A DNA stretch of 64,000 nt from Candidatus Levyibacteriota bacterium (GCA_039738415.1 JBCLLY010000001.1:53621-117620); one strand, 5' to 3'; positions 20,580-58,380 are shown, numbered from the stretch's first letter. The notes: generated by a model from the letters alone, not told the origin. Numbers and translations are program-made.

Positions 20580-20667
20580 CATGAATTATGAATAATGAAG
20601 TAAGAAGCATGAAGTAGGAATTATGAAGCATGAAGCAGGAAGCATGAAGTATGAATAATGAAGCAGG
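20580..20667. repeat. heptanucleotide tandem array (CATGAAG/TATGAAT units)
   Basis: It fills the whole intergenic spacer and runs into the first codons of the next gene. Confidence 0.8.
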
Positions 20668-21040
20668 GAAGATAAAAAATTTTACCGATCTAAATGCATG
20701 GAAATATAGCCATAGTTTGGTTTTAGAAATTTATGAAATTACCAAGATTTTTCCTAAAGAAGAGCAATTTGGACTCACCAATCAAATAAGAAGAGCAGTC
20801 GTATCAATAAGTTCAAATATTGCTGAGGGATTTAGCAGAACTTCCTATAAAGATAAGTCTCATTTCTATTCAATGGCGTTAGGTTCTTTAACAGAGGTTC
20901 AAAACCAACTTATGATTGCGCGTGATTTAGGATACTTTTCAGTAGAAAAGTTCAATGAGTTAATAAAGGTCAGCATTACGGTAAGTAAACTTTTAAATGG
21001 ACTGCTTAAAAAATCAAAAACCATGATTCGTGACTCATGA
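20651..21040 (+). CDS. four-helix-bundle protein copy 2
   Basis: NIAEGFSRTSYKDKSHFYSMALGSLTEVQNQL signature. Confidence 0.75.
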   Translation: MNNEAGKIKNFTDLNAWKYSHSLVLEIYEITKIFPKEEQFGLTNQIRRAVVSISSNIAEGFSRTSYKDKSHFYSMALGSLTEVQNQLMIARDLGYFSVEKFNELIKVSITVSKLLNGLLKKSKTMIRDS

Positions 21041-21078
21041 TTCATGATTCGAGTTTAGGATTTAGAATTTAATTAATT

Positions 21079-21501
21079 ATGGCACTATCTAAAAAAGTAA
21101 TACTTGCCCCCGACTCTATCTATGCGTACATAGACCGTGTGTCTGAAAAACACCAGCAGGCGGTAGCATTTTTCCGATATTTTTCACAAGAGCATTACCG
21201 GCTCTTCATTGATTGCGTAAGTCTAAACAAGGTGTACGAGGACATATATCTTAAAATGAGCCAGGATTTGGCAAAGGATTTCATAAAGATTATAAGTGTC
21301 TCAGATATTAATATAGTCTACCCTGATGAAGGAGAAACAAAGGCAGCAATAAAGGCTTTGATTAATTACCGTACGCTTGATTTAACTTTCTCCCAAGCCA
21401 TTCTTTCAGTTGTAGCAAATAGAAGAAGCATTAATCAGGTGGTTACATTCTCTTATTTGCCTCCATTATTTGGTCTGCAAACGTTCTATTTACCGATATA
21501 G
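21079..21501 (+). CDS. hypothetical protein
   Basis: 140-aa ORF flanked by heptamer arrays on both sides. Confidence 0.3.
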   Translation: MALSKKVILAPDSIYAYIDRVSEKHQQAVAFFRYFSQEHYRLFIDCVSLNKVYEDIYLKMSQDLAKDFIKIISVSDINIVYPDEGETKAAIKALINYRTLDLTFSQAILSVVANRRSINQVVTFSYLPPLFGLQTFYLPI

Positions 21502-21507
21502 AAAGAA

Positions 21508-21633
21508 GAATGCTTCATTCTTCATACTTCATACTTCCTGATTCATGCTTCATTCTTCATACTTCATACTTCCTGATTCATGCTTCATACTTCATGCTTC
21601 CTGCTTCCTGATTCATACTTCATGCTATATATC
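21508..21633. repeat. heptanucleotide tandem array (ATGCTTC/ATACTTC/CTGATTC units; reverse complement of the 20580 array)
   Basis: About 18 units. Confidence 0.85.
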
Positions 21634-21809
21634 AAAAGGTTAATTAAGATATCAATATGTATCGTAATAATGCTAGTTTTGTCAGCAACCCCCGCACCCA
21701 CGGGACTTATCGATCGGGGAATTGGGTGCGGGGCAAAAAAACCACAACTAATTATCTAATTCAATTAGAGGATTTTGAAATGCTATTTATTTTGCTATAA
21801 TTACTTATC

Positions 21810-21881
21810 GCCGTCTTAGCTCAGTGGTAGAGCAGCTGTTTTGTAAACAGCAGGTCTAGGGTTCGAATCCCTAAGACGGCT
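21810..21881 (+). tRNA. tRNA-Thr (anticodon TGT)
   Basis: Acceptor GCCGTCT, D-arm GCTC-AGTGGTA-GAGC, anticodon stem GCTGT/ACAGC with loop UUUGUAA, T-arm TAGGG-TTCGAAT-CCCTA. Confidence 0.85.
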
Positions 21882-21888
21882 CAACAAT

Positions 21889-21944
21889 GTAGAGCATCCC
21901 GCTAAGCGGGACGGGTCGCGAGTTCGAATCTCGCCTCAGGCTCA
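21889..21944 (+). pseudogene. tRNA-like 3' fragment (D-stem 3' half, CCCGCTAAGCGGG hairpin as anticodon arm with TAA triplet, T-arm GCGAG-TTCGAAT-CTCGC, acceptor 3' strand, no 5' half)
   Basis: Read directly; lacks a 5' acceptor partner. Confidence 0.4.
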
Positions 21945-22082
21945 AATTTTGGCAAGCACGACTTGTACTGGGATAAACAGTCCTTCGACAAGCTCAGGAT
22001 TAGAAACAGGTCTAGGGCTTGCCCCGTATAGCCGCCACCGTGAGGCAAAGACGTAGACTTTGCGAACGGGAAGGTTTATGCG

Positions 22083-22107
22083 GGGTTCGAATCCCTAAGA
22101 CGGCTCA
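22083..22107 (+). repeat. 25-bp direct repeat of the tRNA-Thr(TGT) 3' end (GGGTTCGAATCCCTAAGACGGCTCA), about 200 bp downstream of the gene
   Basis: Identical to 21859-21883. Confidence 0.8.
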
Positions 22108-22141
22108 TAAAATTTTCTGCTAAATGGTACTGAAATTCAAA

Positions 22142-22374: not shown

Positions 22375-22405
22375 TTGACATGAGGTGGGGGGGGGAGTGT
22401 TTAAT
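22375..22405 (+). promoter_or_regulatory. sigma70-like promoter TTGACA-19bp-TTTAAT with a G9 homopolymer (22387-22395) in the spacer
   Basis: The paralogous promoter at 23641 has G5 and a 17-bp spacer. Confidence 0.5.
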
Positions 22406-22414
22406 ATATATTAT

Positions 22415-23527
22415 ATGAGAGTTTTTCTGCCTAAAAGATCAAAGAAATCAATTTCGGTCATAGGGTTGATCGTAGTATTAATAAACCTTATGGTATTACC
22501 TCTTTTTGTAAGTCAAGTTGATGCCGGAACTTTTACCAGCCGTACAGTAACCATCTCTGACTCACGGGCAGGAAACACCGGCACAACGTATGATTTTGCC
22601 TTTACCGTTGTCGCAACCACAGCAATCAAGCAGTGGAACATTAAGTTTTGTACTGTTACAGGAGCCTACGATGACGCTTGCACAACACCAACCGGAATTG
22701 TAACAACCGGCGCAGCCATCGGATCAGACAACGTAACCGGCTCCGGCAGAACTAACACGTTTGGAGGAAACGGTGTTTTACAAACAGTTGTTACCACTCC
22801 TTCTACCCAAAGCCCGACAGGGGTTACTGTTTCTTACACCGGAATCACAAACCCAACAACAGCCGATACCACCTTCTTTGCCCGTATCATTACATATTCA
22901 GATCCGGGAACAACAGAGATTGACAGTGGGACAGTTGCCGCTGCCATTTTAACCTCCACCTCAATTGCCGTAACTGCCGCCATTGACTCAGCGCTTACTT
23001 TTACTGTGGCAGCTGTCAATAGCGGAGGAACCGTCAATGGAGCAACCACCAATATTACCACCACTGCTATCCTCATTCCTTTTGGGACGCTTTCTTCCGG
23101 TTCAACCAAAATTGCCGCTCATGACTTGACAGTGGAAACAAATGCTTCTGGCGGATACACGACCACTGTCAAGGCAACCGCTACTCCACCTTTAGTTAAT
23201 GGCTCAAATAATATTGATGTCTTTACCGGTGCTAATTCAAATCCAACAATTTGGAGTTCACCGGGTGGTACTGCCAACTCTGTTAATACCGGATTCTTTG
23301 GGTATACCACCAATGATGCGACTCTAGGCACAGGCACAGCCGACAGATTTACAGATACGGGTAATGAGTGGGCCGGAACTACCACCTCTCCTTTAGAGGT
23401 TGCCTTTTCCGCAACCGGTGCTTCTTCAGAGACAACAAGGGTAGGCTGGCAAGCTGAGGTTAACAGCATCCAAGCCGCAGGATCATATACCGGAACTGTT
23501 ATTTTAACGACTACGCCAACGTATTAA
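22415..23527 (+). CDS. Thr/Gly-rich secreted surface protein, tandem paralog A (signal peptide; C-terminal ...GSYTGTVILTTTPTY)
   Basis: Start set at ATG MRVFLPKRSKK. The track start GTG 22385 would translate the G tract. About 95% identical to paralog B. Confidence 0.6.
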   Translation: MRVFLPKRSKKSISVIGLIVVLINLMVLPLFVSQVDAGTFTSRTVTISDSRAGNTGTTYDFAFTVVATTAIKQWNIKFCTVTGAYDDACTTPTGIVTTGAAIGSDNVTGSGRTNTFGGNGVLQTVVTTPSTQSPTGVTVSYTGITNPTTADTTFFARIITYSDPGTTEIDSGTVAAAILTSTSIAVTAAIDSALTFTVAAVNSGGTVNGATTNITTTAILIPFGTLSSGSTKIAAHDLTVETNASGGYTTTVKATATPPLVNGSNNIDVFTGANSNPTIWSSPGGTANSVNTGFFGYTTNDATLGTGTADRFTDTGNEWAGTTTSPLEVAFSATGASSETTRVGWQAEVNSIQAAGSYTGTVILTTTPTY

Positions 23528-23640
23528 CTACGCGTACTATCAGAAAGATCACCAAGCAATTCTAGAACCTTATCCCTGAAGAAACCATAATCATAGCGGA
23601 GAAACTGTATACTATGTGTTGGACACCGTACAAGAAGTCC

Positions 23641-23669
23641 TTGACATGGAGTGAGGGGGAGTGTTTAAT
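23641..23669 (+). promoter_or_regulatory. sigma70-like promoter TTGACA-17bp-TTTAAT with a G5 tract
   Basis: Duplicated with gene B; the same architecture is seen at 49382-49410. Confidence 0.5.
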
Positions 23670-23678
23670 ATATACTAT

Positions 23679-24791
23679 ATGAGAGTTTTTCTGCCTAAAA
23701 GATCAAAGAAATCAATTTTGGCCATAGGGTTGATGGTAGTATTAATAAACCTTATGGTATTACCTCTTTTTGTAGGTAAAGCCAATGCCGACACCCTCAC
23801 AACCCGCAATCTAACCATCTCTGACTCACGGGCAGGAAACACCGGCACAACGTATGATTTTGCCTTTACCGTTGTCGCAACCACAGGAATCAAGCAGTGG
23901 AATATTAAGTTCTGTACTGCTGCGGGAGCCTACGCTGACGCTTGCACAACACCAACCGGAATTGTAACAACCGGCGCAGCCATCGGATCAGACAACGTAA
24001 CCGGCTCCGGCAGAACTAACACGTTTGGAGGAAACGGTGTTTTACAAACAGTTGTTACCACTCCTTCTACCCAAAGCCCGACAGAGGTTACTGTTTCTTA
24101 CACCGGAATCACAAACCCAACAACAACGGATACCACCTTCTTTGCCCGTATCATTACATATTCAGATCCGGGAACAACAGAGATTGACAGTGGGACAGTT
24201 GCCGCTGCCATTCTCACCACCACCTCAATAGCCGTAACTGCCGCCGTTGACCCAGCGCTTACCTTTACTGTAGCTGCTGTCAATTCCGGAACCGTCAATG
24301 GAGCAACCATCAATGTGACGACTTCAACTGCCGTCCTTATTCCTTTTGGGACGCTTTCTTCCGGTTCAACCAAAATTGCCGCTCATGACTTGACAGTGGA
24401 AACAAATGCTTCTGGCGGATACACGACTACTGTCAAGGCAACCGCTACTCCACCTTTAGTTGATGGCTCAAATAATATTGATGTCTTTACCGGTGCTAAT
24501 TCAAATCCAACAATTTGGAGTTCACCGGGTGGTACTGCCAACTCTGTTAATACCGGATTCTTTGGGTATACCACCAATGATGCGACTCTAGGCACAGGCA
24601 CAGCCGACAGATTTACAGATACGGGTAATGAGTGGGCCGGAACTACCACCTCTCCTTTAGAGGTTGCCTTTTCCGCAACCGGTGTTTCTTCAGAGATAAC
24701 AAGGGTAGGCTGGCAGGCTGAGGTCAACAGCATCCAAGCCCCAGGATCATATACCGGAACTGTTATTTTAACGACTACGCCAACATATTAA
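23679..24791 (+). CDS. Thr/Gly-rich secreted surface protein, tandem paralog B
   Basis: 370 aa; tandem duplication unit about 1266 bp. Confidence 0.6.
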   Translation: MRVFLPKRSKKSILAIGLMVVLINLMVLPLFVGKANADTLTTRNLTISDSRAGNTGTTYDFAFTVVATTGIKQWNIKFCTAAGAYADACTTPTGIVTTGAAIGSDNVTGSGRTNTFGGNGVLQTVVTTPSTQSPTEVTVSYTGITNPTTTDTTFFARIITYSDPGTTEIDSGTVAAAILTTTSIAVTAAVDPALTFTVAAVNSGTVNGATINVTTSTAVLIPFGTLSSGSTKIAAHDLTVETNASGGYTTTVKATATPPLVDGSNNIDVFTGANSNPTIWSSPGGTANSVNTGFFGYTTNDATLGTGTADRFTDTGNEWAGTTTSPLEVAFSATGVSSEITRVGWQAEVNSIQAPGSYTGTVILTTTPTY

Positions 24792-24808
24792 GCTAAAAAA
24801 AATTAAAA

Positions 24809-28049: not shown

Positions 28050-29105
28050 TTAATACACCGGTACTACTACATAGACAACAGTATTAGTATAACTTCCTGC
28101 TCTGGTAGCAGAATCTCCTGTAACACGGTAAGTTATTGTAAATTGCTCGTTTGTTACAGTTGGATCCTCAATAACAGCCGTATGATCTGCTATCGGATCT
28201 CCAGGCGCTGATGTAGTAAATCCTGCATGTTTTGGCCCTCCAGTGGTAAACCTGTCTGCTGTGCCTCCCGCCAGATTATTATCATCAGTTGTATAACCAA
28301 AACCGGTTCCCGACCAGACAGCAGGGGCGGAATTAGGACTTGCAAAAGCTGGGATAGTATTTGATCCAGAGGTTAAAAGTCCTGTATTTCGACCATATAT
28401 AGTATAACCGTTATAGGCATTAGTCGAGGTGGTTAAAACTGTTGTTTTGGCACTGTCGGTAAAAGAGTTTCCGGAATTGAGGTTGGCAAAGGTGAGAGTT
28501 GCCGAGGATATGCCAAAAGTAAGCGAGGGGTTAGAAGTGGCAATGGCAGCAGATTCAGGTCCATACCCGCTTTCAGTAAAATTGCCCCTTTTGGCCTTCC
28601 CTTTTATCTCATAAGTAGTGTTGGCGTTCAGGGTTCTGACAAATTCACCCGTTGCCCCACCCCAGTCAGTATAGGTTTGCCAATCCTCTGTTCCTAAAAC
28701 TGTACCAACAGTATTATCATTTTGAACGTATTTAGTAGTAACAAAATCATCATCAGAGATAGCAATAGCAAATAAGGCGTCCGTGGGGTTACTCCCATTA
28801 TCGATAACGAACTTAAGCCTGTCATAATTGGTGGCCGGATTGGACAAAGTTGGCACTGGCGGAACATTGGCCTGCATAGTAAAGATTAACCCTGTACCAG
28901 CCTTAAAGCTTGTCGAACTTAATTGTCCAAACTCCAATTCCCCTGCTACCCCGAATAAGGAAAAATTAGTCGAATTAAAACCATCCGTTCCCCCACTGCC
29001 AAAAGTATAGTCTTTTAATTCGTAGTTAGTGCTGGTCGGCCCGGCAAAAACAGATAGAGGAAAGATTAATACAATTATAAAGAGTAAGATCAGTAGTTTA
29101 GCCAT
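28050..29105 (-). CDS. Thr/Gly-rich secreted surface protein (same family as 22415/23679; C-terminal ...GSYTNTVVYVVVPVY)
   Basis: Signal peptide and shared C-terminal block W..GFGYTT.D..L.GGTADRFT... Confidence 0.5.
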   Translation of the reverse strand: MAKLLILLFIIVLIFPLSVFAGPTSTNYELKDYTFGSGGTDGFNSTNFSLFGVAGELEFGQLSSTSFKAGTGLIFTMQANVPPVPTLSNPATNYDRLKFVIDNGSNPTDALFAIAISDDDFVTTKYVQNDNTVGTVLGTEDWQTYTDWGGATGEFVRTLNANTTYEIKGKAKRGNFTESGYGPESAAIATSNPSLTFGISSATLTFANLNSGNSFTDSAKTTVLTTSTNAYNGYTIYGRNTGLLTSGSNTIPAFASPNSAPAVWSGTGFGYTTDDNNLAGGTADRFTTGGPKHAGFTTSAPGDPIADHTAVIEDPTVTNEQFTITYRVTGDSATRAGSYTNTVVYVVVPVY

Positions 29106-29162
29106 AAATCAAAGATTAAAAATCAAATCTCAAAAATAAAAATCAAAAATCAAAAACTATCA

Positions 29163-29537
29163 TCATCTGTTTTTCTTCATAGTGATGATACTTGCCGCTA
29201 AAATATTGGCTAACTGTTCTACTTCATCAATTAAAGGGTTGATTTTTTCTGATGGAACCCTTTTTGTTTCTTTTAACAAAGTCAGCCAGTATTTTGCTTC
29301 ATTGGCACTTTTTAATGCATGAGTGTAAAAATTAATATAATCTCTTTTACTTGAGGCTGACTTTGCTTCGGTGATATTTGCCCCAATTGAAGTTGCACTT
29401 CTTATCAACTGATCTGCTATTACCCAACAAGAACGCACACTCGGCAAACTATCTGTTAATTCTATTACCTGAATTGAAAATTTAAAAGCTCTATCTAAAA
29501 AATTTTCTTTCTCTTTTTTTTGGTCTTTTATGTCCAT
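29163..29537 (-). CDS. four-helix-bundle protein copy 3
   Basis: IGANITEAKSASSKRDYINFYTHALKSANEAKYWL. Confidence 0.7.
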   Translation of the reverse strand: MDIKDQKKEKENFLDRAFKFSIQVIELTDSLPSVRSCWVIADQLIRSATSIGANITEAKSASSKRDYINFYTHALKSANEAKYWLTLLKETKRVPSEKINPLIDEVEQLANILAASIITMKKNR

Positions 29538-29570
29538 TTTTGAGATTTAATTTTTGATTTTTTATTTTCT

Positions 29571-41246: not shown

Positions 41247-41296
41247 TATACTAGATACTAGATACTAGATACTAGATACTAGATACTAGATACCCT
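41247..41296. repeat. (ATACTAG)n heptamer array immediately upstream of uppP
   Basis: Seven perfect units ending 2 bp before the ATG. Confidence 0.85.
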
Positions 41297-42080: not shown

Positions 42081-42158
42081 GTTAGATAAACAAACCAAAT
42101 CCTTAATTCATGATTCTTTATTCTTAATTCTTTCTTTGTTGTGTTATAATCGCCTCAA

Positions 42159-45981: not shown

Positions 45982-46051
45982 ATATTATTAGTTATTTCGA
46001 CCAGAGGTCAATCGGCCTCTGGTCGAAGTTATTAGGAGTAGGAGTTAGTTT

Positions 46052-46408
46052 TTAAACAGTCCTTCTACTCATTACATTTAACATTTTACAAATTTCCTCT
46101 AACAGTAATTCTGCTGGAGTATATTTTTTAGATTCAGAATAACCCAAGTTTTTTGCAATTAAAATCTGAGTATCAAGCTCTAAAGCAGAACCATACGAAA
46201 TTTTGTAAAATCTTTTATAATCGTTTTCACTTTTTCGTCCATATCCTTCAGCAATATTTGATGGTATGCTGACAACTGCTCTTCTTATTTGAGATGTAAG
46301 TCCATACATTTCTTCCTTTGGAAAATCGTTCGTTAATTTATATACAGCCTCAACCAATAAAATCGCTTTTTGCCAAACAACTAACTCTTTATAAGACTTA
46401 ATTTTCAT
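46052..46408 (-). CDS. four-helix-bundle protein copy 4
   Basis: NIAEGYGRKSENDYKRFYKISYGSALELDTQILIA. Confidence 0.7.
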   Translation of the reverse strand: MKIKSYKELVVWQKAILLVEAVYKLTNDFPKEEMYGLTSQIRRAVVSIPSNIAEGYGRKSENDYKRFYKISYGSALELDTQILIAKNLGYSESKKYTPAELLLEEICKMLNVMSRRTV

Positions 46409-46410: not shown

Positions 46411-46468
46411 CTACTCCTACTCCTACTCCTACTCCTACTCCTACTCCTACTCCTACTCCTACTCCTAA
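46411..46468. repeat. (TACTCC)n hexamer array abutting the start codon of the minus-strand gene at 46408
   Basis: About 9.5 units. Confidence 0.85.
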
Positions 46469-46570
46469 TTAACTATATCCCAATACTACTTTTATGTATC
46501 ATTTTTAGCTTGTTTATATTCACTATATCACTTCGATTGCATGATGGCAATCGATGATGGTATATGTCAA

Positions 46571-46703
46571 ATGATGAAGACTGAATGATGAATCATGAAT
46601 AATGGATCATGAATCATGAATACTGAATGATGAATCATGAATAATGAATCATGAATACTGAATAATGGATACTCTATACTGAATACTGGATACTGAAATG
46701 AAA
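46571..46703. repeat. heptamer tandem array (TGAATCA/TGAATAA/TGAATAC units)
   Basis: Same family as the arrays at 20580, 21508, 48974, 52066 and 58255. Confidence 0.8.
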
Positions 46704-48946: not shown

Positions 48947-48973
48947 GTTGGTAGAAAGTAGCATGTAGTATGG

Positions 48974-49165
48974 AGTATTCAGTATTCAGTATTCAGTATT
49001 CAGTATTCAGTATTTAGTATTCAGTATCCATGATTCATTATTCATGATTCATTATTCATTATTCAGTCTTCAGTATTCATGATTCATTATTCATGATTCA
49101 TGATTCATTATTCAGTATTCATGATTCATTATTCATGATTCAGTCTTCACCATCCACCATCTACA
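48974..49165. repeat. heptamer tandem array (ATTCAGT/ATTCATG/ATTCATT), about 27 units
   Basis: Read directly. Confidence 0.85.
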
Positions 49166-49231
49166 AGTCTCTCTTCCCTCCGCCAGCTGGCGGATTGTAG
49201 CTAGTATCAGTTATAAGTTAATTTCACCGTT

Positions 49232-49310: not shown

Positions 49311-49381
49311 GGGGTTTTTAGGATGACTACATCAATTATCTATCTTCCCTCTTCCCTCTTCCCTAATACCCAATAATGTGC

Positions 49382-51081: not shown

Positions 51082-52062
51082 ATGAAAAGGTCTGTCCAAA
51101 CGAAACACTTTCTAAAAATCAGCCTACCGGCTATTCTTATTTCTTTTTTTCTAGTCGCAATAGCACAGATTGCTCTCGCTCAAACCACTCCAACCAGAAG
51201 CATCGTAATCTCCCCGCCTACAATTGAGCATACTCTAAATCCTGGAGAAAGAGCTGAGGGGATTTTGAAGGTCACAAACAGCGGAAATACAGATCTTGCT
51301 TTCGGAGCAAATATACACGATTTTATAGTTGAGGATAAAAACGGAACACCTGTCATTCTTACTACAGATAAATTATCTGAAAAATATTCCGGCGCATCGT
51401 GGATAGCTGTTACTCCAAAAACATTTACTGTTCCCGCCGGAACAACAAAAGAGATCAACTATTATCTTCAAGTTCCCCTCGATGCTGCTCCCGGAGGACG
51501 TTATGCTGCCGCAATTTATGAACCAATTGACATAATTAGAGTCGAGGGTACCGGCGCCGGAGTTAATACACAATTAGGGTCACTTTTTTACATAACTGTC
51601 GCAGGACCGGTGACGGAAAGCGCGCAAGTCGAGCTTTTTTCAGCTCCTCCATTCTCGGAATATCCACCGGTAAAGATTTTTACAGAAATAAGCAATAACA
51701 GCGATGTGCATATAAAACCAAGTGGCAATATCGTAATTAAAAATATGTTTGGTCAGGAAATTGCCAGACAAACTTTTTCCGGAGGAAATATATTTCCAGA
51801 GGCAAATCTAAGATATACAAATGAATTCTTTTCAGACTCAAATTTTAAAATAGGCCGCTATACTGCTGAGCTTTCCGCGATATACGGACAGGATAACAAT
51901 CTACCTCTTTTTGCAACACTTAGCTTCATAATTTTCCCCTGGAAAGTCGCACTGGTACTAGTACTAATCGCGTCAATCTCAGTAGTCGCATTCTTACTAT
52001 TCAAAAGGAAGAAGAACAAAAAAGACACAAAACCATCTGAAACCCCAACGCCACGGGGATAG
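51082..52062 (+). CDS. DUF916/CscA-like cell-surface protein (paralog)
   Basis: ...ASWIAVTP...GGRYAAAIY..., C-terminal TM plus KRKKNKK tail. Confidence 0.45.
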   Translation: MKRSVQTKHFLKISLPAILISFFLVAIAQIALAQTTPTRSIVISPPTIEHTLNPGERAEGILKVTNSGNTDLAFGANIHDFIVEDKNGTPVILTTDKLSEKYSGASWIAVTPKTFTVPAGTTKEINYYLQVPLDAAPGGRYAAAIYEPIDIIRVEGTGAGVNTQLGSLFYITVAGPVTESAQVELFSAPPFSEYPPVKIFTEISNNSDVHIKPSGNIVIKNMFGQEIARQTFSGGNIFPEANLRYTNEFFSDSNFKIGRYTAELSAIYGQDNNLPLFATLSFIIFPWKVALVLVLIASISVVAFLLFKRKKNKKDTKPSETPTPRG

Positions 52063-52065
52063 GTA

Positions 52066-52318
52066 AGTATTCAGTATTCAGTATTCAGTATTCAGTATTC
52101 ATGATTCAGTATTCATGATTCATTATTCAGTCTTAAGTATTCAGTATTCAGTATTCAGTCATCAGTCTTCAGTCTTCAGTATTCATGATTCATGATTCAT
52201 GATTCAGTCTTCAGTATTCATGATTCATGATTCATGATTCAGTCTTCAGTATTCATGATTCATTATTCATGATTCATTATTCATTATTCATGATTCATTA
52301 TTCAGTATTGAGTCTTAA
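52066..52318. repeat. heptamer tandem array, about 36 units
   Basis: Read directly. Confidence 0.85.
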
Positions 52319-52444
52319 GGGTATTCAGAAGTTAAGCAAACAATTTTCAATTTGAAATTTAAAATTTTAAATCAATTTAAAATGCTTAAAAATTAAAATA
52401 AAACTGTCATTGTGAGTGTTTCCCTTGTCATGCTAGAACTATTT

Positions 52445-52600
52445 ATAAGTCATCCTGAACCCCCCCCGTCATCCTGAAAACTCCTCTCGTCATCCTGAAC
52501 CCCCCCCGTCATCCTGAATTTATTTCAGGATCTCTACAGAATTTTTAGATTCTATCGGCTCTTCGAGCCTCCAGAATGACAACGGTGAAGTCGTCAGCTA
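52445..52600. repeat. REP-like cluster: four tandem CGTCATCCTGAA units followed by a full GTCATCCTGAA...CCAGAATGAC element
   Basis: Read directly. The spacing is too short and the units too small for a CRISPR array. Confidence 0.7.
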
Positions 52601-52683
52601 AAAATTATTTGACAATGTTCACTATTTATGCGCAAAATAAGTCAGGCCTTCCGCCAACTGGCGGATTTAGGTTTTATTTTTAT

Positions 52684-54177
52684 ATGCACCAAAAGATCTT
52701 ATTTAAATTTTTTCTAAGCTTATCAGGCTTTATAGCTTTATTTTTGGCAAATAACGAGGTCTACGCCGCGGATTTGGTAAATGCCAGCAATACCATCACA
52801 ACCTCACGTCCTTCAGCCTCATCTCCGTTCTTAGCAGACGCTGCCTCCGGTGATACACTTGCGTCAATATTTAATAACGGCTCTTTTTATCTTGCTTCAG
52901 ACTCCGCTCAAACCCGTCAAGGAGGTACTGGTACGCTTATGGATACTGGCACCATAATCTCTTCCCAGTCTGCAGCACTCACTACAGTGTATTTTGGGGA
53001 ACAGCTAGGCGTCGCAGCGGGCGCAAATGCAGATGTCCTAATCGTACCAATTACGGCAATGCATAGAATCCGATTTACTATTCCTACCGAAATTCCAGCT
53101 AACGGAGATATTGTTATTACTTTCCCATCGCTTGCCACGGGCGATGCAAATAACGAAGCATCCCCTTCTGCAAGCACTTTCCAGTTCAATAATATGGATG
53201 CAAATGATGGAACCCTAATACAAATCGTTGATGATGGAACAAATATAGATGCCTCGACAACACCTACCGCAACTAACTCTACAGGGGATGGAGATGGTCC
53301 TGATATACATATTGCAACTACATCAATTATTGCGGCAGGGAGCGTTGTTGATATATATATCGGATGCTCAGCTGCAATTACTTCCTGCTCTGCGCAAGTC
53401 CCCACTCTAATAAATCCTACAAAAACAGCAGTCGCGGGAACCGCTAATGTTTGGAAAATAAATGTTCAAACAAGAGATGCTACCGACGTTAACCTAGATA
53501 ATGCAACAATAGCTGTCGGTACGATAGACTCAGTCGCAGTTAGAGCGACTGTCGACCCCACTCTTTCATTTACAATTACCGGAGTAAATAACGGACTGGC
53601 GGTAAATACCGGAAATACAACAGGATGTTTGCAAACAGAAACAACAAACGCGGGCGCGGCTTCCACTTCAACCGAGGTAAATCTGGGGCTTCTTGCCAAC
53701 GCTCCATCCGGAACAGATGTCAAGGTAGGAAATATAGCAACACAAAGGATAAATATCAGCACAAATGGAGCTGGAGGATATGTTCTAACTGCAACTTCTT
53801 CCGGTCAGCTTATAAATCCTGCAACCGGATTTTTCCTAGCTTCAGCAACAACTCCTACTGCTTTTCCTGCAAGCGGAGCTGATTGGTTTGGAATTCACGC
53901 ATGCGGATTGGACGTGACAACCGCTACGTGGAACTCTACTGCAAGCACTGCATGCAATACTTATATTTCAGGCTCAACAGATCCTATTTGCCTTTATGGT
54001 TGGCCTACCCAAACAACCGCAGTTACGCTTGCTTCAGACGCCACAGGACCGGTGGGAAATTCTCTCACTGCCGGAAATGGAGTTGTCTCTGTTGCTTACG
54101 CAGCTGCAACTGACGCTGGCGTACCCCCTGGAGAATACAGGACTGTTATAACTTACGTTGCAACGCCGGCATTCTAG
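52684..54177 (+). CDS. Thr-rich secreted surface protein (paralog of 49422)
   Basis: Start placed at ATG before the signal peptide (MHQKILFKFFLSLSGFIALFLA). The track ORF begins at 52576 inside the REP element. Confidence 0.5.
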   Translation: MHQKILFKFFLSLSGFIALFLANNEVYAADLVNASNTITTSRPSASSPFLADAASGDTLASIFNNGSFYLASDSAQTRQGGTGTLMDTGTIISSQSAALTTVYFGEQLGVAAGANADVLIVPITAMHRIRFTIPTEIPANGDIVITFPSLATGDANNEASPSASTFQFNNMDANDGTLIQIVDDGTNIDASTTPTATNSTGDGDGPDIHIATTSIIAAGSVVDIYIGCSAAITSCSAQVPTLINPTKTAVAGTANVWKINVQTRDATDVNLDNATIAVGTIDSVAVRATVDPTLSFTITGVNNGLAVNTGNTTGCLQTETTNAGAASTSTEVNLGLLANAPSGTDVKVGNIATQRINISTNGAGGYVLTATSSGQLINPATGFFLASATTPTAFPASGADWFGIHACGLDVTTATWNSTASTACNTYISGSTDPICLYGWPTQTTAVTLASDATGPVGNSLTAGNGVVSVAYAAATDAGVPPGEYRTVITYVATPAF

Positions 54178-54265
54178 AAGAGTTCAAAATTCAAAATGAA
54201 AAGTTCAAAATTGCAACTCAAAATTTAAAATTAACTTTTGACTTTGCACTTTTAACTTTGAACTT

Positions 54266-55987
54266 TTAATTGAGGTAATCTCGACTATTCATGCTATTTT
54301 CCGCTTGAATATCCTGCTTTTCCCGCACTCCTATCATAGGAATTTCAAATGTAACCTTTGTCCCGCGCCCCTGTTCTGATTCAAGGCTGATTTTACCACC
54401 GTGCGCCTCAACTATCGCCTTCGAGATATACAAACCTAACCCCGTTCCGCCCCCTCTATACTCAGAGCTTGTTTGATAAAATTTGGTAAATAATTTATCT
54501 TGAAGCGGTTTGGAAATTCCAACGCCATTATCCTCAACACAAACCCGGACGTTTTTACCCTCAACTAGGGTTGAAACTTTAATATTTCCGCCGTCATGAT
54601 TATATTTAATAGCATTTGACAGCAAATTATTCAAAACTTGCCCCATTCTAAGCGAATCTAAGGAAAAGACGGGCACATCCCCATCTTTTTCAAAAACCAA
54701 GCTTATATGGCGCTTTTCTGACAGAATTTTAAACATTTTAACGCGTTCCTCGATGATACTTATGATATCCGAAGGTTTCATTTCCGTTTGAAAACTCCCA
54801 CTCTGAATTCTGGCAGCATCAAGCAGCTGATTTACATCATTTAGCATACGCTCGGATGAAACCAGAATCGTCTCCATCATTTTTACTCTGTCCTCATTGT
54901 CAAGCTTATTTGAGCGCAGCAGTTCTGCACTTCCCCTAATTGAACTCAAAGGGGCTCTAAGCTCATGAACGACCATATTTGTGAAATTCTCCCTGAGGCG
55001 TTCTGCCTCATACTCCATCGTCACGTCTTGAATGGTGACTGCTACCCCAATTACGTTCAGAGTTGCGTTATCAAAAACAGGGTTAATGTATAGGTTAAAC
55101 CTCTTTTCGTATAACTCAATACCCCTAAACAGCTTCATTTGCTTCTTCTCCATTACGGCTCTTACCTCAGCAACCATATTACCCTCAAACTTAAATTGTG
55201 AAAGCACTATTTGAGCGTCCAGCGGACCATCCAGATGCAAAAAGGCTCTTGCCGCGTTATTTAGAGTTACTAACTTCAAATCTCCCTCTTTTTCTCTCAT
55301 AAAAAGTAAGGCTCCTGAAGAGAGAGAGAAAATAAGCGACTGAATTTTTCCCTTTTCGGTTTCTATAACATTTTCAAGCCGTCCTATCGCAAGTTGGCTC
55401 TGATTTACAATTTTATAAAGCAAACTCATATCTTTGTCCTGATAGACTTTTTCTTTTGGTGAGGTGATGGAAATAATTCCGACGAATTTGTTATTTAAAA
55501 CTAAAGGAATATTAAAATATGACTTGGGGACTATATCAGAAGATATATCATTATCAACCTCTGCATCTTTTTCTTCGAAAATTTGAGGTGGAATTTGGGT
55601 AATACTAAAGTGTTTTAGGCTGTCATCCAGCGCATACATAGAGTTAAGAACGATATTTTTTACCTCCTGCTGATATTTTTCAGATGCTACGCCGTAAATG
55701 AAGCTCTCAAATATCACTTGCGCGTCCTCTACTACAGCGTATGAAGCAGTCTTAAGTGGAAAAAGGCGCTTGGCGGTAAGTGCTATTGTCTTTGCAATAT
55801 CGCGGGTCTTAAGACTATATCCGATTTTATCATTTACCTCACGCAGTATATTTAACTCATAAAGCTGGCGCCCTAACTCTGCCTGCGTTTCTTTAAGTTT
55901 TTTGCGGTTTACCTCCCAGAGGAAAGAAAAAACTATAGCAAGTGAACCAAATAGAATAAGCGAAAGAAATAATAAAAGAATAAGCAT
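54266..55987 (-). CDS. sensor histidine kinase (TM, GAF/PAS-like, HisKA, HATPase_c)
   Basis: H-box HELRAPLSSIRG; N, G1 and G2 boxes (NLLSNAIKYN, DNGVGI, GGTGLGL). Confidence 0.8.
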   Translation of the reverse strand: MLILLLFLSLILFGSLAIVFSFLWEVNRKKLKETQAELGRQLYELNILREVNDKIGYSLKTRDIAKTIALTAKRLFPLKTASYAVVEDAQVIFESFIYGVASEKYQQEVKNIVLNSMYALDDSLKHFSITQIPPQIFEEKDAEVDNDISSDIVPKSYFNIPLVLNNKFVGIISITSPKEKVYQDKDMSLLYKIVNQSQLAIGRLENVIETEKGKIQSLIFSLSSGALLFMREKEGDLKLVTLNNAARAFLHLDGPLDAQIVLSQFKFEGNMVAEVRAVMEKKQMKLFRGIELYEKRFNLYINPVFDNATLNVIGVAVTIQDVTMEYEAERLRENFTNMVVHELRAPLSSIRGSAELLRSNKLDNEDRVKMMETILVSSERMLNDVNQLLDAARIQSGSFQTEMKPSDIISIIEERVKMFKILSEKRHISLVFEKDGDVPVFSLDSLRMGQVLNNLLSNAIKYNHDGGNIKVSTLVEGKNVRVCVEDNGVGISKPLQDKLFTKFYQTSSEYRGGGTGLGLYISKAIVEAHGGKISLESEQGRGTKVTFEIPMIGVREKQDIQAENSMNSRDYLN

Positions 55988-56100
55988 ACATTAGGTTAGC
56001 ACCTAATAGTATTTAGTATCAAGTATGGGGATATGGAGCCGCTTTGATAAGACTTTATACTACTTGATTTATTTCAATACATTGATACAATTGTATTGTA

Positions 56101-56336
56101 TGAGTAACTATGTAGTAACCAATATTAGACTTGCCGAAGAGGACTATTTGAGACTAAAGGAGGAAGCGGCAAGAGGAAGAAAAAGTTTTTCAGCTGTTAT
56201 CAGAGAGAAAATATCGATTAGAAAAGCCGATGATAACTATGCAGCAAAACTGTTGTCTGTAAGTGGTAATTGGTTTGATAAGTCTGAATATGATGCAAAT
56301 AGAACAGAACTTGATAAAAGGCTATCCTTTTCATGA
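56101..56336 (+). CDS. vapB: VapB-type antitoxin (ribbon-helix-helix-like)
   Basis: Small ORF overlapping vapC by 4 bp (ATGA). The perfect 12-bp palindrome ATACAATTGTAT sits at the start, a candidate operator. Start set at ATG MSNYVV. Confidence 0.45.
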
Positions 56337-56725
56337 AAAAAATACTGCTCGATACTTCAATCATCATAGATTTTCTCAGAAGAAAAGATAAAGAACATAG
56401 TCTTTTTTATGCTTTTGCAAAAATTAACACTCAATTTTATACTTCAATTATTACTCATTCAGAACTATATGCAGGTAAAAGTGTATGGACTGATACACAA
56501 GCACCAAAAGATCTTGAGTCTATATTTTCAGGGATTGAGCTGCTCCCTTTGCAGGAAAAAGTTTCAAAAAAAGCAGGTGAAATAAAAGCTACCACTGGTC
56601 TTGATCTCATTGATTCAATTATTGCAGCTACTGCAATAACAGCAAGTCTTCCTCTTCTTACCCTAAACATTAAGGATTTTAGAAAGGTTAAAGAACTTAT
56701 ACTTGAACTTCACCCAACTCTGTAA
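56333..56725 (+). CDS. vapC: PIN-domain toxin VapC
   Basis: MKKILLDTSIIIDFL... with PIN acidic residues; 130 aa. Confidence 0.7.
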   Translation: MKKILLDTSIIIDFLRRKDKEHSLFYAFAKINTQFYTSIITHSELYAGKSVWTDTQAPKDLESIFSGIELLPLQEKVSKKAGEIKATTGLDLIDSIIAATAITASLPLLTLNIKDFRKVKELILELHPTL

Positions 56726-57026
56726 TCATAAAACCAAAAAAACTCATGGCAAACGGAGTCGAAGAAATCTTCATTTTTCGAGGAAAGTCCGATAACTATT
56801 TCATAATGTCATTCTGGCGTAGACCAGAATCTATTTCCAAAACTGAACTCTATTCCCTTTTACTTATTCTCTATTACCTATCTGGGGTGTGGTGCCCCCG
56901 CCTTGTCCTTTCGGACGCGGCGGGGACGGATTTGAAAACGTGCCCTCCTTCGTCCCGCTAAGCGGGACTATGGCGGGCTAAGCAGGTCATGCGGCATTTG
57001 CCCCGCTTTCCGAGGCGTGCTTGGCT

Positions 57027-57242
57027 CTATAACGAGCCGGATGCTTTGGATCCGAACTGCTCAACCTGAACTTTTCCATACTCGCGAAGGTGTCTTGGCT
57101 TGAGTTTGCCTTTTTCAAGCAATATAGCAAGCTTTTTCAAGTCCCTTCTGAGCTGAAACGGACAAGTTCCGGATGCCCGCGTAGGGAGTTCACCAGGGCG
57201 GACTTCCAACGATTGAACCACAGAAGTTTTCTGGGCGTTCAT
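57027..57242 (-). CDS. hypothetical small protein in GC-rich islet
   Basis: 71-aa ORF; flanked by the repeat GCCCCGCTTTCCGRGGCGTGCTTG. Confidence 0.25.
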   Translation of the reverse strand: MNAQKTSVVQSLEVRPGELPTRASGTCPFQLRRDLKKLAILLEKGKLKPRHLREYGKVQVEQFGSKASGSL

Positions 57243-57361
57243 GGTATTTCCTCCTTCTAGCCTTTCCAGGCACTTGTACCCTTCGGCGAGCCTCAGGGTT
57301 TGGGTGTGAATCTAGGCTTTTTAGGGGTTCAACCCATAATAGGGGTTGAACCCCTATATTG

Positions 57362-57661
57362 TCACCGCTGATCTAGTGGGGCAGCGTAACCTCTCAAGTC
57401 GGCACCATCTATAAAGATGCTTTCAAGATTAAGCCTTGCTTTTAAAAGCCGCTCACGGACTTCATCGGAATTATCCTTTTCGGAGGCAGCAAGCGCAGCC
57501 AAATACCCGATAATGGCCTTCTGAAGCTTGCGCTTCTCTGCTTTTGCTTTCACTGCTTGATACAACCGAAAATTCGGCAAAACCTCACCAAGATCGATAC
57601 GCGCTAGGAGTTGTCGGCGAATCTCCTCACGATATTCTTCAGATGACTTACTGGTTGCCAT
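57362..57661 (-). CDS. hypothetical small protein in GC-rich islet
   Basis: 99-aa ORF; same flanking repeat upstream (57680-57702). Confidence 0.3.
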   Translation of the reverse strand: MATSKSSEEYREEIRRQLLARIDLGEVLPNFRLYQAVKAKAEKRKLQKAIIGYLAALAASEKDNSDEVRERLLKARLNLESIFIDGADLRGYAAPLDQR

Positions 57662-58254
57662 TGGATCTCCCTTTCTTGCCCCGCTTTCCGGGGCGTGCTT
57701 GTATCCTTCATTGAGCTCAGGATTTGGGCGTGAACTTCGAAAGTGTTGGCAGGGTTCAACCCTGTCACTTATGGAGTGGGTTCGCTCTTTTGAAGCTTTT
57801 GCTTGATGTTATCGATAACCATGCTTCCCACTATGGGAATACACGCTATGAAAACGGTAAGGACTGCTCCGAGAAAAAGGAAAGCTCCCCCTACCTTGCG
57901 AACGATTTGCACCTACGCCTCCTCATGTGTGATTGCGGTTTTACCCGAAATTGTGAAGTTAAAAATTACTAGTTACTAGAATCCAGTTACTAGTCTGACC
58001 TGCGTATTTTCAAGGAGCTTCACTTCTTTCGAAGTGACGCAGACCCGTCAAAATCGCTCTTTAAGGCGTGTATGAATAATACCTGAAGCCTTCAAGTAAG
58101 ATATGTCGGGTCAATGTGCTGCCTAGCGCAGCCAACAGAAACGCAAGCAATCCGCCGATGAGGCGGAGCGAAGTTGACCGCCTAAGCGATTACGCAAATT
58201 ATACTCCCGGAAAGCAATAAATTCAAACTATGGGTTAAGTTTATGCTAGAGGCT

Positions 58255-58380
58255 AGATACTGAATACTGGATACTGAATAATGAATAATGAATAATGAAT
58301 AATGGATACTGAATAATGAATAATGAATACTGAATACTGAATACTGAATACTCTATACTGAATAATGAATACTAGATACT
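58255..58380. repeat. heptamer tandem array (ATACTGA/ATAATGA units)
   Basis: Read directly. Confidence 0.85.

What the first reader, a model, noticed from the sequence alone, without database searches (positions are those of the whole stretch)
20580..58380. Dispersed heptanucleotide tandem arrays (ATTCAGT/ATTCATG/ATTCATT and complements) abutting gene starts
At least seven arrays of the same 7-bp unit family, with 10 to about 36 units each, occupy intergenic spacers. They sit at 20580, 21010, 21508, 46571, 48974, 52066 and 58255. Other short-unit arrays directly touch start codons: (ATACTAG)7 before uppP at 41247, and (TACTCC)n at 46411.

Several arrays flank the four-helix-bundle genes and the surface-protein clusters. 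One array supplies the first codons of gene 20651. Unit-number changes would alter promoter-to-start spacing. These are possible contingency loci or recombination substrates.
Basis: seen in the sequence. Interest (0 to 1): 0.55.

Follow-up and report, generated by a model that had tools for sequence, protein, structure and literature searches.

The report
Heptamer-array stems bracketing four-helix-bundle genes
The 7-bp repeat arrays are real and change length between near-identical strains, and many of them are the paired, mutually complementary arms that bracket small four-helix-bundle genes, the same layout as the intervening sequences of ribosomal RNA genes but here sitting among ordinary genes of a candidate-phyla-radiation bacterium.

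Summary
The window holds 11-18 period-7 arrays against 0-2 for any other period and 0 in shuffles.

Unit number varies. A 99.7-99.8% identical assembly differs by exactly one unit at two arrays. A ~96% relative differs by about 12-13 units at two others.

The promoter-spacing reading is not supported. Many arrays form inverted pairs whose arms face a cargo. Three of the four PF05635 four-helix-bundle (4HB; S23p/Avd-like) genes are bracketed by complementary tandem arrays, each with its own unit.

The layout recurs elsewhere:
- 76 metagenomic relatives of one 4HB gene show it (period-7 signal only; 5'/3' complementarity 18.0 against 8.1 shuffled).
- Six further candidate-phyla-radiation (CPR) 4HB genes show it.
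- 4HB genes in Verrucomicrobia and Bacteroidetes show it, with different but complementary units.

The 4HB genes sit co-oriented inside operons (99 of 101 neighbours).

The closest precedent is the Coxiella 23S rRNA intervening sequence: an S23p ORF, terminal inverted repeats cut by RNase III, and strain-variable heptamers before the start codon.

Best reading: hypermutable arms of IVS-like hairpin elements outside rRNA. The paired structure is shown. RNA-level processing is inferred, and a wobble-pair test did not support it.

The parts
20581..20665 (+). 5' arm: (ATGAAKN) about 12 units. It fills the whole spacer between the HTH_17 stop (20578) and the 4HB gene and contains that gene's start codon.
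   Evidence: It is 84% complementary over 89 nt to 21511-21599. It is about 12 units longer in relative L126.
20651..21040 (+). Four-helix-bundle gene (PF05635, S23p/bAvd-like), the cargo of the bracket.
   Evidence: Pfam E=2e-38. PDB 2GSC E=1e-22. Thousands of CPR homologues.
21022..21050 (+). Short 3' arm, (ATTCATG) about 4 units, overlapping the last codons and the stop of the 4HB gene.
   Evidence: Identical in L126. The same arm is present in Levybacteria-type homologues.
21079..21501 (+). 140-aa ORF of unknown function, enclosed with the 4HB gene between the long arms.
   Evidence: no family match.
21509..21626 (+). 3' arm: (NCTTCAT) about 17 units, starting 7 nt after the stop of the 140-aa ORF. 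Synteny with the ~96% relative ends here.
29536..29568 (-). 5' arm of the minus-strand 4HB gene ((CAAAAAT)n in the sense strand). It fills the spacer to the upstream ORF.
   Evidence: 51 nt, 80% complementary to 29106-29156.
29163..29537 (-). Four-helix-bundle gene (PF05635).
   Evidence: E=1.6e-24.
29106..29157 (-). 3' arm of that gene ((TTGATTT)n in the sense strand). It fills the spacer to the next ORF.
   Evidence: The fold has a closing stem, z=-4.1.
46411..46467 (-). 5' arm of the minus-strand 4HB gene: (AGGAGT)9.5 in the sense strand, a run of Shine-Dalgarno-like hexamers ending 2 nt before the ATG.
   Evidence: Absent, together with the gene, from relative L124.
46052..46408 (-). Four-helix-bundle gene (PF05635), a presence/absence cassette upstream of mreB.
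   Evidence: E=6e-40.
46033..46046 (-). Short 3' arm ACTCCTACTCCTA, complementary to the (AGGAGT)n arm.
   Evidence: The fold has a closing stem, z=-2.9.
46570..46697 (+). Left arm, (ATGAATN) about 18 units, 122 nt upstream of the PEGA-domain gene.
   Evidence: It is 88% complementary over 128 nt to 48999-49126.
48951..49144 (+). Right arm, (ATTCAGT/ATTCATG) about 24-27 units, starting 4 nt after the stop of ORF 48092-48946. It varies by one unit between assemblies.
52058..52320 (+). Solo array, (ATTCAGT/ATTCATG) about 35-37 units, overlapping the stop of ORF 51082-52062. No complementary partner on the cargo side.
58245..58373 (-). Solo array reading (ATTCAGT/ATTCATT) about 17 units on the minus strand, starting 5 nt after the stop of minus-strand ORF 58379-58732.
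   Evidence: does not fold on its own, z=+1.0.
41248..41293 (+). (ATACTAG)6.6, a perfect array 4 nt upstream of the uppP start. It varies by one unit between assemblies.
54181..54269 (.). Two abutting, mutually inverted heptamer runs (TTCAAAA / AACTTTT) that fill the spacer between convergent genes and fold into one hairpin (an empty bracket).
   Evidence: z=-3.0.
17663..17762 (+). (GTCTTAG/GTCTTAA)n array with palindromic units beside tRNA-Thr. It self-folds.
   Evidence: z=-4.6.
42098..42132 (+). Short (ATTCNNN)n run between the uppP stop and the Y1-transposase gene.
19848..20258 (+). Fourth, divergent PF05635 gene, without clear complementary arms.

Best explanation
The window comes from a candidate-phyla-radiation (Patescibacteria) genome. 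In it, intergenic heptamer arrays are largely the arms of hairpin-type brackets. A run of units of the form NNNGAAT on one side is matched by its reverse complement, ATTCNNN, on the other. The arms face a cargo, which is most typically a PF05635 four-helix-bundle gene (S23p/Avd family).

Shown:
- The arrays exist and are period-7-specific.
- They expand and contract by whole units between close strains.
- Three of the four 4HB genes here are bracketed by complementary arrays that overlap their start and stop codons. So are about 80 homologues elsewhere, with different unit sequences.
- These genes are inserted co-directionally inside operons.
- Empty brackets (hairpins without cargo) also exist.

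Inferred:
- When the operon is transcribed, the two arms pair into a long double-stranded stem.
- That stem sequesters the 4HB start codon and is a substrate for RNase III. This is the demonstrated behaviour of the 23S rRNA intervening sequences that carry the same ORF family.
- Unit-number slippage then changes stem length, and so processing and expression.
- Dispersed arrays of one unit family also give homology for recombination, cassette gain or loss, and synteny breaks.
- The solo ATTCAGT arrays at 52058 and 58245 are read as single arms that have lost or never had a partner, or as ordinary members of the widespread heptamer microsatellite class.
For: Period-7 excess.

Unit-number polymorphism.

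Inverted pairing in the window:
- 89 nt at 84% complementarity.
- 128 nt at 88%.
- 51 nt at 80%.

Predicted closing stems between the arms: z=-4.1; z=-2.9.

76 metagenomic loci with homologues of 57-79% identity:
- Flank periodicity score 12.9 and 12.3 at period 7, against about 4 at periods 4-11.
- Own 5'/3' complementarity 18.0, against 8.1 shuffled (p=5e-14) and 14.8 for the arm of another locus (p=6e-5).
- ATGAA occurs 178 times upstream against TTCAT 9 times. TTCAT occurs 149 times downstream against ATGAA 36 times.
-.

Locus-specific units that stay complementary:
- GTATTAN / NTAATAC.
- TGTATAA / TTATACA.
- TAGAGAG / CTCTCTA.
- GTAACAA / TTGTTAC.
- GTAGGTA / CTACAAC.

The same layout occurs around PF05635 genes in Verrucomicrobia and Bacteroidetes contigs.

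Array density is 1.63 per kb within 160 nt of 4HB genes, against 0.18 per kb elsewhere.

Co-orientation with neighbours is 50 of 50 upstream and 49 of 51 downstream, with median gaps of 30 and 22 nt.

Empty hairpins occur in L147, L195, L197 and L124, and in the window at 54172-54275.

Precedents from the literature:
- Coxiella IVS: an S23p ORF, a 28-bp terminal inverted-repeat stem cut by RNase III, and 2-3 strain-variable GACAGAT heptamers before the ATG (PMC4990558).
- PF05635 ORFs in CPR 16S and 23S insertion sequences (10.1101/2024.02.27.582315).
- The H. influenzae hmw (ATCTTTC)n hairpin cut by RNase III (PMC12721329).
Against: - No transcript or cleavage data exist for any of these loci.
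- A strand test gave no excess of G.U over A.C mismatches in the arms (88 against 122). Selection on the sense RNA in particular is therefore not supported, and DNA-level concerted evolution of the arms could maintain complementarity.
- The fourth 4HB gene (19848) lacks arms.
- Two of the largest arrays (52058, 58245) have no partner and do not fold alone.
- ATTCAGT arrays in 120 contigs of other phyla are almost all solitary (3 of 120 with an inverted partner). Only 5 of 120 have a PF05635 ORF within 8 kb. Heptamer arrays as a class are therefore broader than the 4HB bracket.
- Short arms are invariant among 99.9-100% identical metagenome contigs.
Confidence: 0.55

Rival explanations
1. Classical contingency loci. 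Slippage in the arrays changes promoter-to-start or 5'-UTR spacing and switches the adjacent genes (surface proteins, uppP) on and off. The inverted arrangement has no role.
For: - Whole-unit length changes between near-identical assemblies.
- Arrays abut the starts of uppP and of two 4HB genes.
- Many neighbours are signal-peptide surface proteins.
- Heptamer phase variation of hmw is a known case.
Against: - Five of the seven family arrays are immediately 3' of stop codons.
- The promoter scan was at chance.
- 7-bp steps in a non-coding 3' position have no obvious switch logic.
- This reading does not explain complementary arms that are conserved with changing unit sequence across about 80 loci.
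Confidence: 0.15
2. Neutral microsatellites. Heptamers are the preferred slippage unit of the replication machinery in this lineage. Arrays grow wherever there is non-coding space and stop at ORF borders. The pairing is incidental.
For: - Heptamers are the most abundant long simple repeats in many prokaryotes (Mrazek 2007, as summarised in PMC4679880).
- Several unrelated units occur in the window (ATACTAG, AACTTTT, GTCTTAG).
- Arrays fill spacers exactly.
- ATTCAGT arrays occur in many phyla, mostly alone.
Against: - Arm complementarity is far above shuffled and above other-locus controls.
- Arms are retained around homologues down to 57% identity and in other phyla, with compensating unit changes.
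- There is a nine-fold enrichment next to 4HB genes.
- There is a polarity rule: the ATTC-5' side faces the gene in 47 of 60 abutting cases (p=1e-5).
Confidence: 0.15
3. DNA-level mobile element. The arms are terminal inverted repeats (MITE/REPIN-like) of a non-autonomous cassette. It is moved in trans, for example by the Y1 (IS200/RAYT-like) transposase at 42159-42806, or copied into empty hairpin sites by gene conversion. Any RNA stem is a by-product.
For: - Presence or absence of the 4HB cassette upstream of mreB, with a different, ORF-less hairpin at the same site in the relative.
- A synteny break at an arm.
- Empty brackets.
- PF05635 ORFs are scattered over several rRNA insertion sites in CPR.
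- No sense-strand G.U bias.
- A Y1 transposase gene lies in the window with an ATTCNNN run beside it.
Against: - No target-site duplication or clean empty site was found. The relative's spacer is unrelated sequence.
- The ORF is co-oriented with its operon in 99 of 101 cases, which random transposition would not give.
- 4HB position is conserved in pilin operons across diverged genomes.
- The transposase is flanked by a different palindromic repeat family, not by inverted heptamer arrays.
Confidence: 0.25

Closest known systems
23S rRNA intervening sequences carrying an S23p (PF05635) ORF (Coxiella burnetii, Leptospira, Brucella)
   Same: - Same ORF family.
- The ORF is bracketed by complementary termini that form a long stem.
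- In Coxiella, tandem heptamers lie directly before the start codon. Their number differs between strains, and the RNase III site lies at the first repeat (PMC4990558).
   Different: - The elements here are not in rRNA (no rRNA in the window). They sit between protein-coding and tRNA genes, inside operons.
- The arms are long tandem arrays, up to 17 units for the arms that bracket 4HB genes and up to about 37 units in the same unit family, rather than a 28-bp unique stem.
- One bracket encloses two non-4HB genes (46570/48999).
- RNase III processing is untested here.
Heptanucleotide long simple-sequence repeats: TAACTGA repeats of Beggiatoaceae, Cyanobacteria and Bacteroidetes (MacGregor 2015), cyanobacterial STRR heptamers, and the Mrazek 2007 survey
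   Same: - Intergenic tandem heptamers, strongly favoured over other periods.
- Placed within a few nucleotides of start codons with an orientation bias.
- Indels in 7-nt steps between close strains.
- Long mixed-unit arrays in some Bacteroidetes.
- The unit ACTGAAT resembles TAACTGA.
   Different: - That literature describes direct repeats only (one inverted case among 170 sets).
- It makes no link to PF05635 genes or to paired complementary arms.
- CPR bacteria were not covered.
Haemophilus influenzae hmw1A/hmw2A (ATCTTTC)n phase-variable 5'-UTR repeat
   Same: A heptamer simple repeat is transcribed, pairs with a complementary region into a long hairpin and is processed by RNase III. Unit number tunes expression (PMC12721329).
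   Different: - There the partner arm is a unique G-rich segment in the same 5'-UTR, and the regulated gene lies downstream.
- Here both arms are arrays, they enclose the gene, and no expression data exist.
REP/REPIN elements with RAYT (Y1) transposases
   Same: - Short dispersed repeats in intergenic and 3'-of-gene positions.
- Inverted pairs that form hairpins.
- A Y1 transposase gene is present in the window.
   Different: - REPs are single imperfect palindromes, not tandem heptamers.
- The window's Y1 gene is accompanied by a separate GTCATCCTGAA...TTCAGGATGAC palindromic family, which is the better REP candidate.

Membership tests
rRNA intervening sequence (IVS) with S23p ORF | The ORF belongs to PF05635 / the S23p four-helix-bundle family. 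| tested here: met
   Pfam E=2e-38, 6e-40, 1.6e-24 and 1e-19 for the four genes. PDB 2GSC E=1e-22.
rRNA intervening sequence (IVS) with S23p ORF | The ORF is bordered by complementary termini able to form a stem. | tested here: met
   Three of the four genes in the window. Also 76 homologous loci and 10 further genes.
rRNA intervening sequence (IVS) with S23p ORF | The element is inserted in a helix of the 23S (or 16S) rRNA gene. | tested here: not met
   Rfam finds only five tRNAs in the window. The elements lie between protein-coding genes.
rRNA intervening sequence (IVS) with S23p ORF | The element is excised from the precursor by RNase III cutting in the stem. | not testable with these tools
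   Needs RNA end-mapping or an enzyme assay. Only fold predictions are available.
rRNA intervening sequence (IVS) with S23p ORF | Tandem heptamers lie before the ORF start, with strain-variable number (the Coxiella case). | tested here: met
   The array at 20581-20665 overlaps the ATG and is about 12 units longer in the ~96% relative.
Contingency locus (SSR phase variation) | A simple repeat whose unit number differs between closely related genomes. | tested here: met
   One unit of difference at 41248 and at 48974 against a 99.7-99.8% identical assembly. About 12-13 units of difference at two arrays against the ~96% relative.
Contingency locus (SSR phase variation) | The repeat is placed in a promoter, 5'-UTR or reading frame, so that unit changes switch expression. 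| tested here: inconclusive
   Three arrays abut start codons, but five of the seven family arrays are 3' of stops. Promoter-like sites are at chance level.
Contingency locus (SSR phase variation) | Reversible ON/OFF or graded expression of the linked gene. | not testable with these tools
   No expression data.
Heptanucleotide long simple-sequence repeats (TAACTGA/STRR type) | Intergenic tandem 7-nt units, over-represented relative to other periods. | tested here: met
   18 arrays at period 7 against 0-2 at other periods. 11 arrays against 0 in shuffles.
Heptanucleotide long simple-sequence repeats (TAACTGA/STRR type) | Non-random placement and orientation next to gene starts. | tested here: met
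   All seven family arrays in the window follow one polarity. In 120 other genomes, 47 of 60 abutting arrays face the gene with the ATTC-5' side (p=1e-5).
REP/REPIN with RAYT | The Y1 transposase gene is flanked by the repeats it mobilises, in inverted orientation. | tested here: not met
   A Y1_Tnp gene is present. No inverted heptamer arrays flank it, and a different palindromic repeat lies downstream.
Diversity-generating retroelement (Avd accessory protein) | A reverse transcriptase gene and a template/variable repeat pair lie next to the Avd-like gene. | tested here: not met
   No reverse-transcriptase family among the roughly 45 window ORFs scanned, nor among 99 neighbours of homologues. 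Template/variable repeats were not searched for specifically.

The most novel reading that the evidence does not exclude
PF05635 four-helix-bundle genes with their heptamer-array arms form a widespread, so far undescribed class of intervening elements that live inside operons as well as inside rRNA genes. They would be removed or regulated at the RNA level through the arm stem, and spread between hairpin sites. The pentameric 4HB protein itself would recognise the heptamer arrays. This would also account for the long-unexplained heptamer repeat families of Cyanobacteria, Bacteroidetes, Beggiatoaceae and CPR.
Probability: 0.2. Interest if true: 0.85.

Novelty: new variant of a known kind. Interest (0 to 1): 0.62.

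Why it matters
PF05635 proteins are very abundant: each of two searches here returned about 7,000-8,000 hits below its E-value cutoff out of the 8,000 candidates scored. Outside diversity-generating retroelements they have no known function. The origin of rRNA intervening sequences is unresolved, and so is the meaning of bacterial heptamer repeats.

The same ORF family carries complementary heptamer-array arms whether or not it sits in rRNA. The arms co-vary across phyla, and the genes are embedded co-directionally in operons. Together these facts tie the three puzzles together and give a concrete, testable object: a stem of tunable length enclosing a start codon.

There is also a practical consequence. 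The arrays break short-read assemblies at these sites. Contigs of the sister assemblies end near them. Such loci are therefore likely under-represented in metagenome-assembled genomes.

Tried and rejected
- **Pentamer numerology.** A 35-nt (5 x 7) super-period appears in the arrays at 20581 and 21509 (autocorrelation 0.86 and 0.92). It is absent from the same arrays in the relative and from all other arrays. I read it as local duplication history, not a five-subunit footprint.
- **Wobble-pair strand test for an RNA stem.** G.U 88 against A.C 122. No support for sense-RNA selection.
- **General link between ATTCAGT arrays and 4HB genes in other phyla.** Only 5 of 120 contigs have a PF05635 ORF within 8 kb, and 3 of 120 have an inverted partner. 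The array class is wider than the bracket.
- **Promoter scan around uppP.** At chance level.
- **Rfam.** Only tRNAs. No known RNA family covers the arrays.
- **Array length variation among 99.9-100% identical metagenome contigs.** None for short arms.
- **The 140-aa ORF 21079-21501.** It looked PIN-like by eye, but Pfam gives no match.
- **A divergent four-gene alignment.** It could not seed the metagenome scan. A closer alignment was used instead.
- **Organism name.** The accessions GCA_039731645.1 and GCA_039738455.1 are not in the paper library. The CPR assignment rests on the named closest homologues: Levybacteria, Blackburnbacteria, WWE3, Parcubacteria and Patescibacteria.
- **Exact look-up of the 140-aa ORF.** It found nothing.

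Full report
**Observation**

Tandem Repeats Finder lists all the arrays named in the finding. A simple self-identity scan finds 18 arrays (1370 bp) at period 7, against none to two at periods 4-12. A stricter score gives 11 arrays, against 0 in 50 shuffles that keep local composition.

The unit counts are as stated, with one exception: the array near 21010 has only about four units. (ATACTAG)6.6 ends 4 nt before the uppP start. (CTACTC)9.5 ends 2 nt before the start of a minus-strand gene.

All arrays but one are intergenic, and most touch a stop or start codon within 0-7 nt. Several fill a spacer completely.

**Source and gene content**

- The window has about 39% G+C and carries five tRNA genes and no other Rfam match.
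- It encodes housekeeping genes: L1, pgk, fbp, mreB, uppP and a wecG-like gene.
- It encodes clusters of signal-peptide proteins with a shared C-terminal motif.
- Four ORFs are PF05635 four-helix-bundle proteins (S23p/bAvd-like): 19848-20258, 20651-21040, 29163-29537 (minus) and 46052-46408 (minus). One of them hits PDB 2GSC at E=1e-22.
- The closest named homologues are from Candidatus Levybacteria, Blackburnbacteria, WWE3, Parcubacteria and the 'Patescibacteria group'. The organism is therefore a CPR bacterium.
- Two sister assemblies, GCA_039731645.1 and GCA_039738455.1, carry the same proteins.

**Length polymorphism**

Comparison with GCA_039731645.1 (99.7-99.8% identical):
- In 7.8 kb the only indel is one ATACTAG unit in the uppP array.
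- In 15.5 kb the only indels are a 1-bp change and one AGTATTC unit at 48974.
- The other long arrays have the same length.

Comparison with GCA_039738455.1 (about 96% identical):
- The array before the 4HB gene is 156 bp instead of 72 bp.
- The array after the 140-aa ORF is about 207 bp instead of 118 bp.
- The short array at the 4HB stop is identical.
- Synteny with this relative stops at the 21509-21626 array.
- The 4HB gene 46052-46408 and its hexamer array are missing. They are replaced by an unrelated 91-bp spacer that itself folds into a hairpin.

**Architecture**

The family arrays are not merely dispersed. They are inverted pairs.

| Arm 1 | Arm 2 | Length | Complementarity |
|---|---|---|---|
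| 20577-20665 | 21511-21599 | 89 nt | 84% |
| 46570-46697 | 48999-49126 | 128 nt | 88% |
| 29106-29156 | 29517-29567 | 51 nt | 80% |

In addition, (AGGAGT)9.5 before gene 46052 is answered by ACTCCTACTCCTA after it. Three of the four 4HB genes are thus bracketed by complementary tandem arrays, each with its own unit: ATGAAKN, CAAAAAT and AGGAGT.

In the sense of the adjacent gene, all 5' arrays read NNNGAAK and all 3' arrays read MTTCNNN (7 of 7).

RNA folds of the three cassettes close with a stem between the arrays (z=-4.1 and -2.9 where shuffles were run).

The window also has an empty bracket. Two abutting inverted heptamer runs fill the spacer between convergent genes at 54181-54269.

**Generality**

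The 4HB gene 20651 has thousands of close homologues. A Levybacteria-type homologue (74% identity) has the same ATGAATN units over its start and ATTCATG units over its stop. The conserved protein termini, MNxE... and ...TMIxDS, are encoded by array units.

A metagenome scan returned 80 loci with homologues of 57-79% identity. In the 76 usable loci:
- The flanks have a period-7 score of 12.9 and 12.3, against about 4 for every other period.
- The 5' flank pairs with the reverse complement of its own 3' flank with a mean local score of 18.0.
- The corresponding score is 8.9 for the direct control, 8.1 for shuffled flanks (p=5e-14) and 14.8 for the 3' flank of another locus (p=6e-5).
-.

Individual loci use other units and remain complementary: GTATTAN/NTAATAC, TGTATAA/TTATACA and AAGAATN/NATTCTT.

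Homologues of the second subfamily were fetched. All six 4HB genes in these loci have heptamer-periodic complementary arms with yet other units.

PF05635 genes that happened to lie in contigs of Verrucomicrobia, Bacteroidetes, Flavobacteriaceae and an unclassified bacterium show the same layout. The Flavobacteriaceae case is weak.

Further properties of the 4HB loci:
- Arrays are nine times denser within 160 nt of 4HB genes than elsewhere in these loci.
- Pairs of adjacent inverted arrays without cargo occur and fold strongly.
- The 4HB genes are co-oriented with their upstream neighbour in 50 of 50 cases and with the downstream one in 49 of 51, at median gaps of 30 and 22 nt.
- The neighbours are diverse, with pilin genes the most frequent.

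**What is broader than the bracket**

Exact (ATTCAGT)3 occurs in more than 120 contigs. They come mainly from Bacteroidota, with Chloroflexota, Planctomycetota, Verrucomicrobiota, CPR and Microcystis also represented.

- These arrays are nearly always solitary and seldom near a PF05635 ORF.
- They nevertheless abut a gene end on their ATTC-5' side in 47 loci, against 13 on the other side.
- The two largest arrays in the window (52058, 58245) are of this solitary kind. They follow the same polarity and do not fold on their own.

**Comparison with the literature**

- **Coxiella burnetii 23S rRNA intervening sequence.** It carries an S23p ORF between terminal inverted repeats that form a 28-bp stem cut by RNase III. 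Two or three GACAGAT heptamers, varying between strains, lie directly before the start codon, and the 5' cut is at the first repeat (PMC4990558).
- **CPR rRNA insertions.** PF05635 ORFs occur in CPR 16S and 23S insertion sequences at several sites.
- **H. influenzae hmw.** The (ATCTTTC)n repeat of hmw1A is transcribed, forms a hairpin and is processed by RNase III. Unit number sets expression.
- **Heptamer repeat surveys.** Heptamer repeats next to start codons, with 7-nt indels between strains, are described for Beggiatoaceae, Cyanobacteria and Bacteroidetes, without a mechanism and without a link to PF05635.
- I found no paper describing free-standing PF05635 genes bracketed by inverted heptamer arrays.

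**Mechanism**

Shown:
- Paired complementary arms.
- Their conservation with compensating unit changes.
- Co-directional insertion in operons.
- Whole-unit hypermutability.
- Coincidence with cassette presence or absence and with a synteny break.

Inferred by analogy with rRNA intervening sequences and hmw:
- The arms pair in the transcript, hide the 4HB start codon and are cut by RNase III.
- Slippage tunes the stem.

One test I could run does not back the RNA reading. Mismatches in the arms are not enriched for G.U on the sense strand (88 against 122 A.C). A DNA-level explanation therefore stays open: terminal repeats of a mobile cassette, or concerted evolution of inverted repeats. The strong co-orientation with operons argues for a transcription-linked role, or at least for a transcription-linked constraint.

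**Verdict**

The arrays that bracket 4HB genes are best described as the arms of intervening-sequence-like hairpin elements outside rRNA. This is a new variant of a known kind. The solitary arrays belong to the known, unexplained class of bacterial heptamer repeats.

Noticed in passing
window 42913-42998, 49223-49330, 52400-52570: A second repeat family: palindromic GTCATCCTGAA...TTCAGGATGAC units, partly in 19-bp tandem copies with a C8 run at 52449-52518. One copy lies just downstream of the Y1 (IS200/RAYT-like) transposase gene 42159-42806. The copies at 49223-49327 and 52489-52593 are about 90% identical in inverted orientation. This looks like a REP/RAYT system.
   Followed up: partly
window 21810-22108: tRNA-Thr (21810-21882) is followed by a tRNA 3'-half-like fragment and then, at 22083-22108, a duplicate of the tRNA-Thr 3' end. 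The 224-bp segment between the two 25-bp copies is absent from the 99.9% identical assembly (L125). This is the signature of an integration or excision remnant at a tRNA gene.
   Followed up: partly
window 18571-21809: The stretch between tRNA-Tyr and tRNA-Thr holds two 4HB genes, an HTH_17 (excisionase-type) gene, a 140-aa ORF and about 1.2 kb without ORFs (18712-19481). The ORF-less part is bracketed by a 33-nt inverted repeat of AAAGATT-like units. In the ~96% relative, the HTH_17-4HB-140aa module is followed by hicAB and ATP synthase genes instead of tRNA-Thr.
   Followed up: partly
window 41184-41199, 43051-43065, 43162-43182, 46033-46046, 46411-46467: Five runs of the hexamer ACTCCT/AGGAGT. 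In one orientation they are Shine-Dalgarno-like, in the other anti-Shine-Dalgarno-like. Contigs of the sister assembly end near three of them (window 43114, 43229 and 46363).
   Followed up: no
window 22385-24791, 28050-29105, 49422-50978, 52576-54177: Paralogous signal-peptide proteins share a C-terminal motif (...G(E/S)Y(R/T)xTV(I/V)xYVxTP(T/A)(F/Y)) and sit next to WxL-interacting-protein-like genes. 22385-23527 and 23661-24791 are about 94% identical tandem copies. 49422-50978 and 52576-54177 are about 77% identical.
   Followed up: no
window 32407-33262 (inside ORF 30760-36144): 6.8 copies of a 126-bp in-frame repeat lie in a 1794-aa LVIVD-repeat protein gene. Substitutions against the sister assembly are clustered in and near the repeats (33153-33348, 35187-35475).
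   Followed up: no
window 44175-44214: (GTAGATG)n is the one period-7 array that lies inside a coding sequence (the wecG-like gene 43904-44683). The ~96% relative has a 264-aa product here instead of 259 aa, with a patch of indels at this site.
   Followed up: no
window 18161-18478: A small GIY-YIG nuclease-domain ORF (105 aa) lies directly upstream of tRNA-Tyr, next to the (GTCTTAG)n array and tRNA-Thr(ggt).
   Followed up: no
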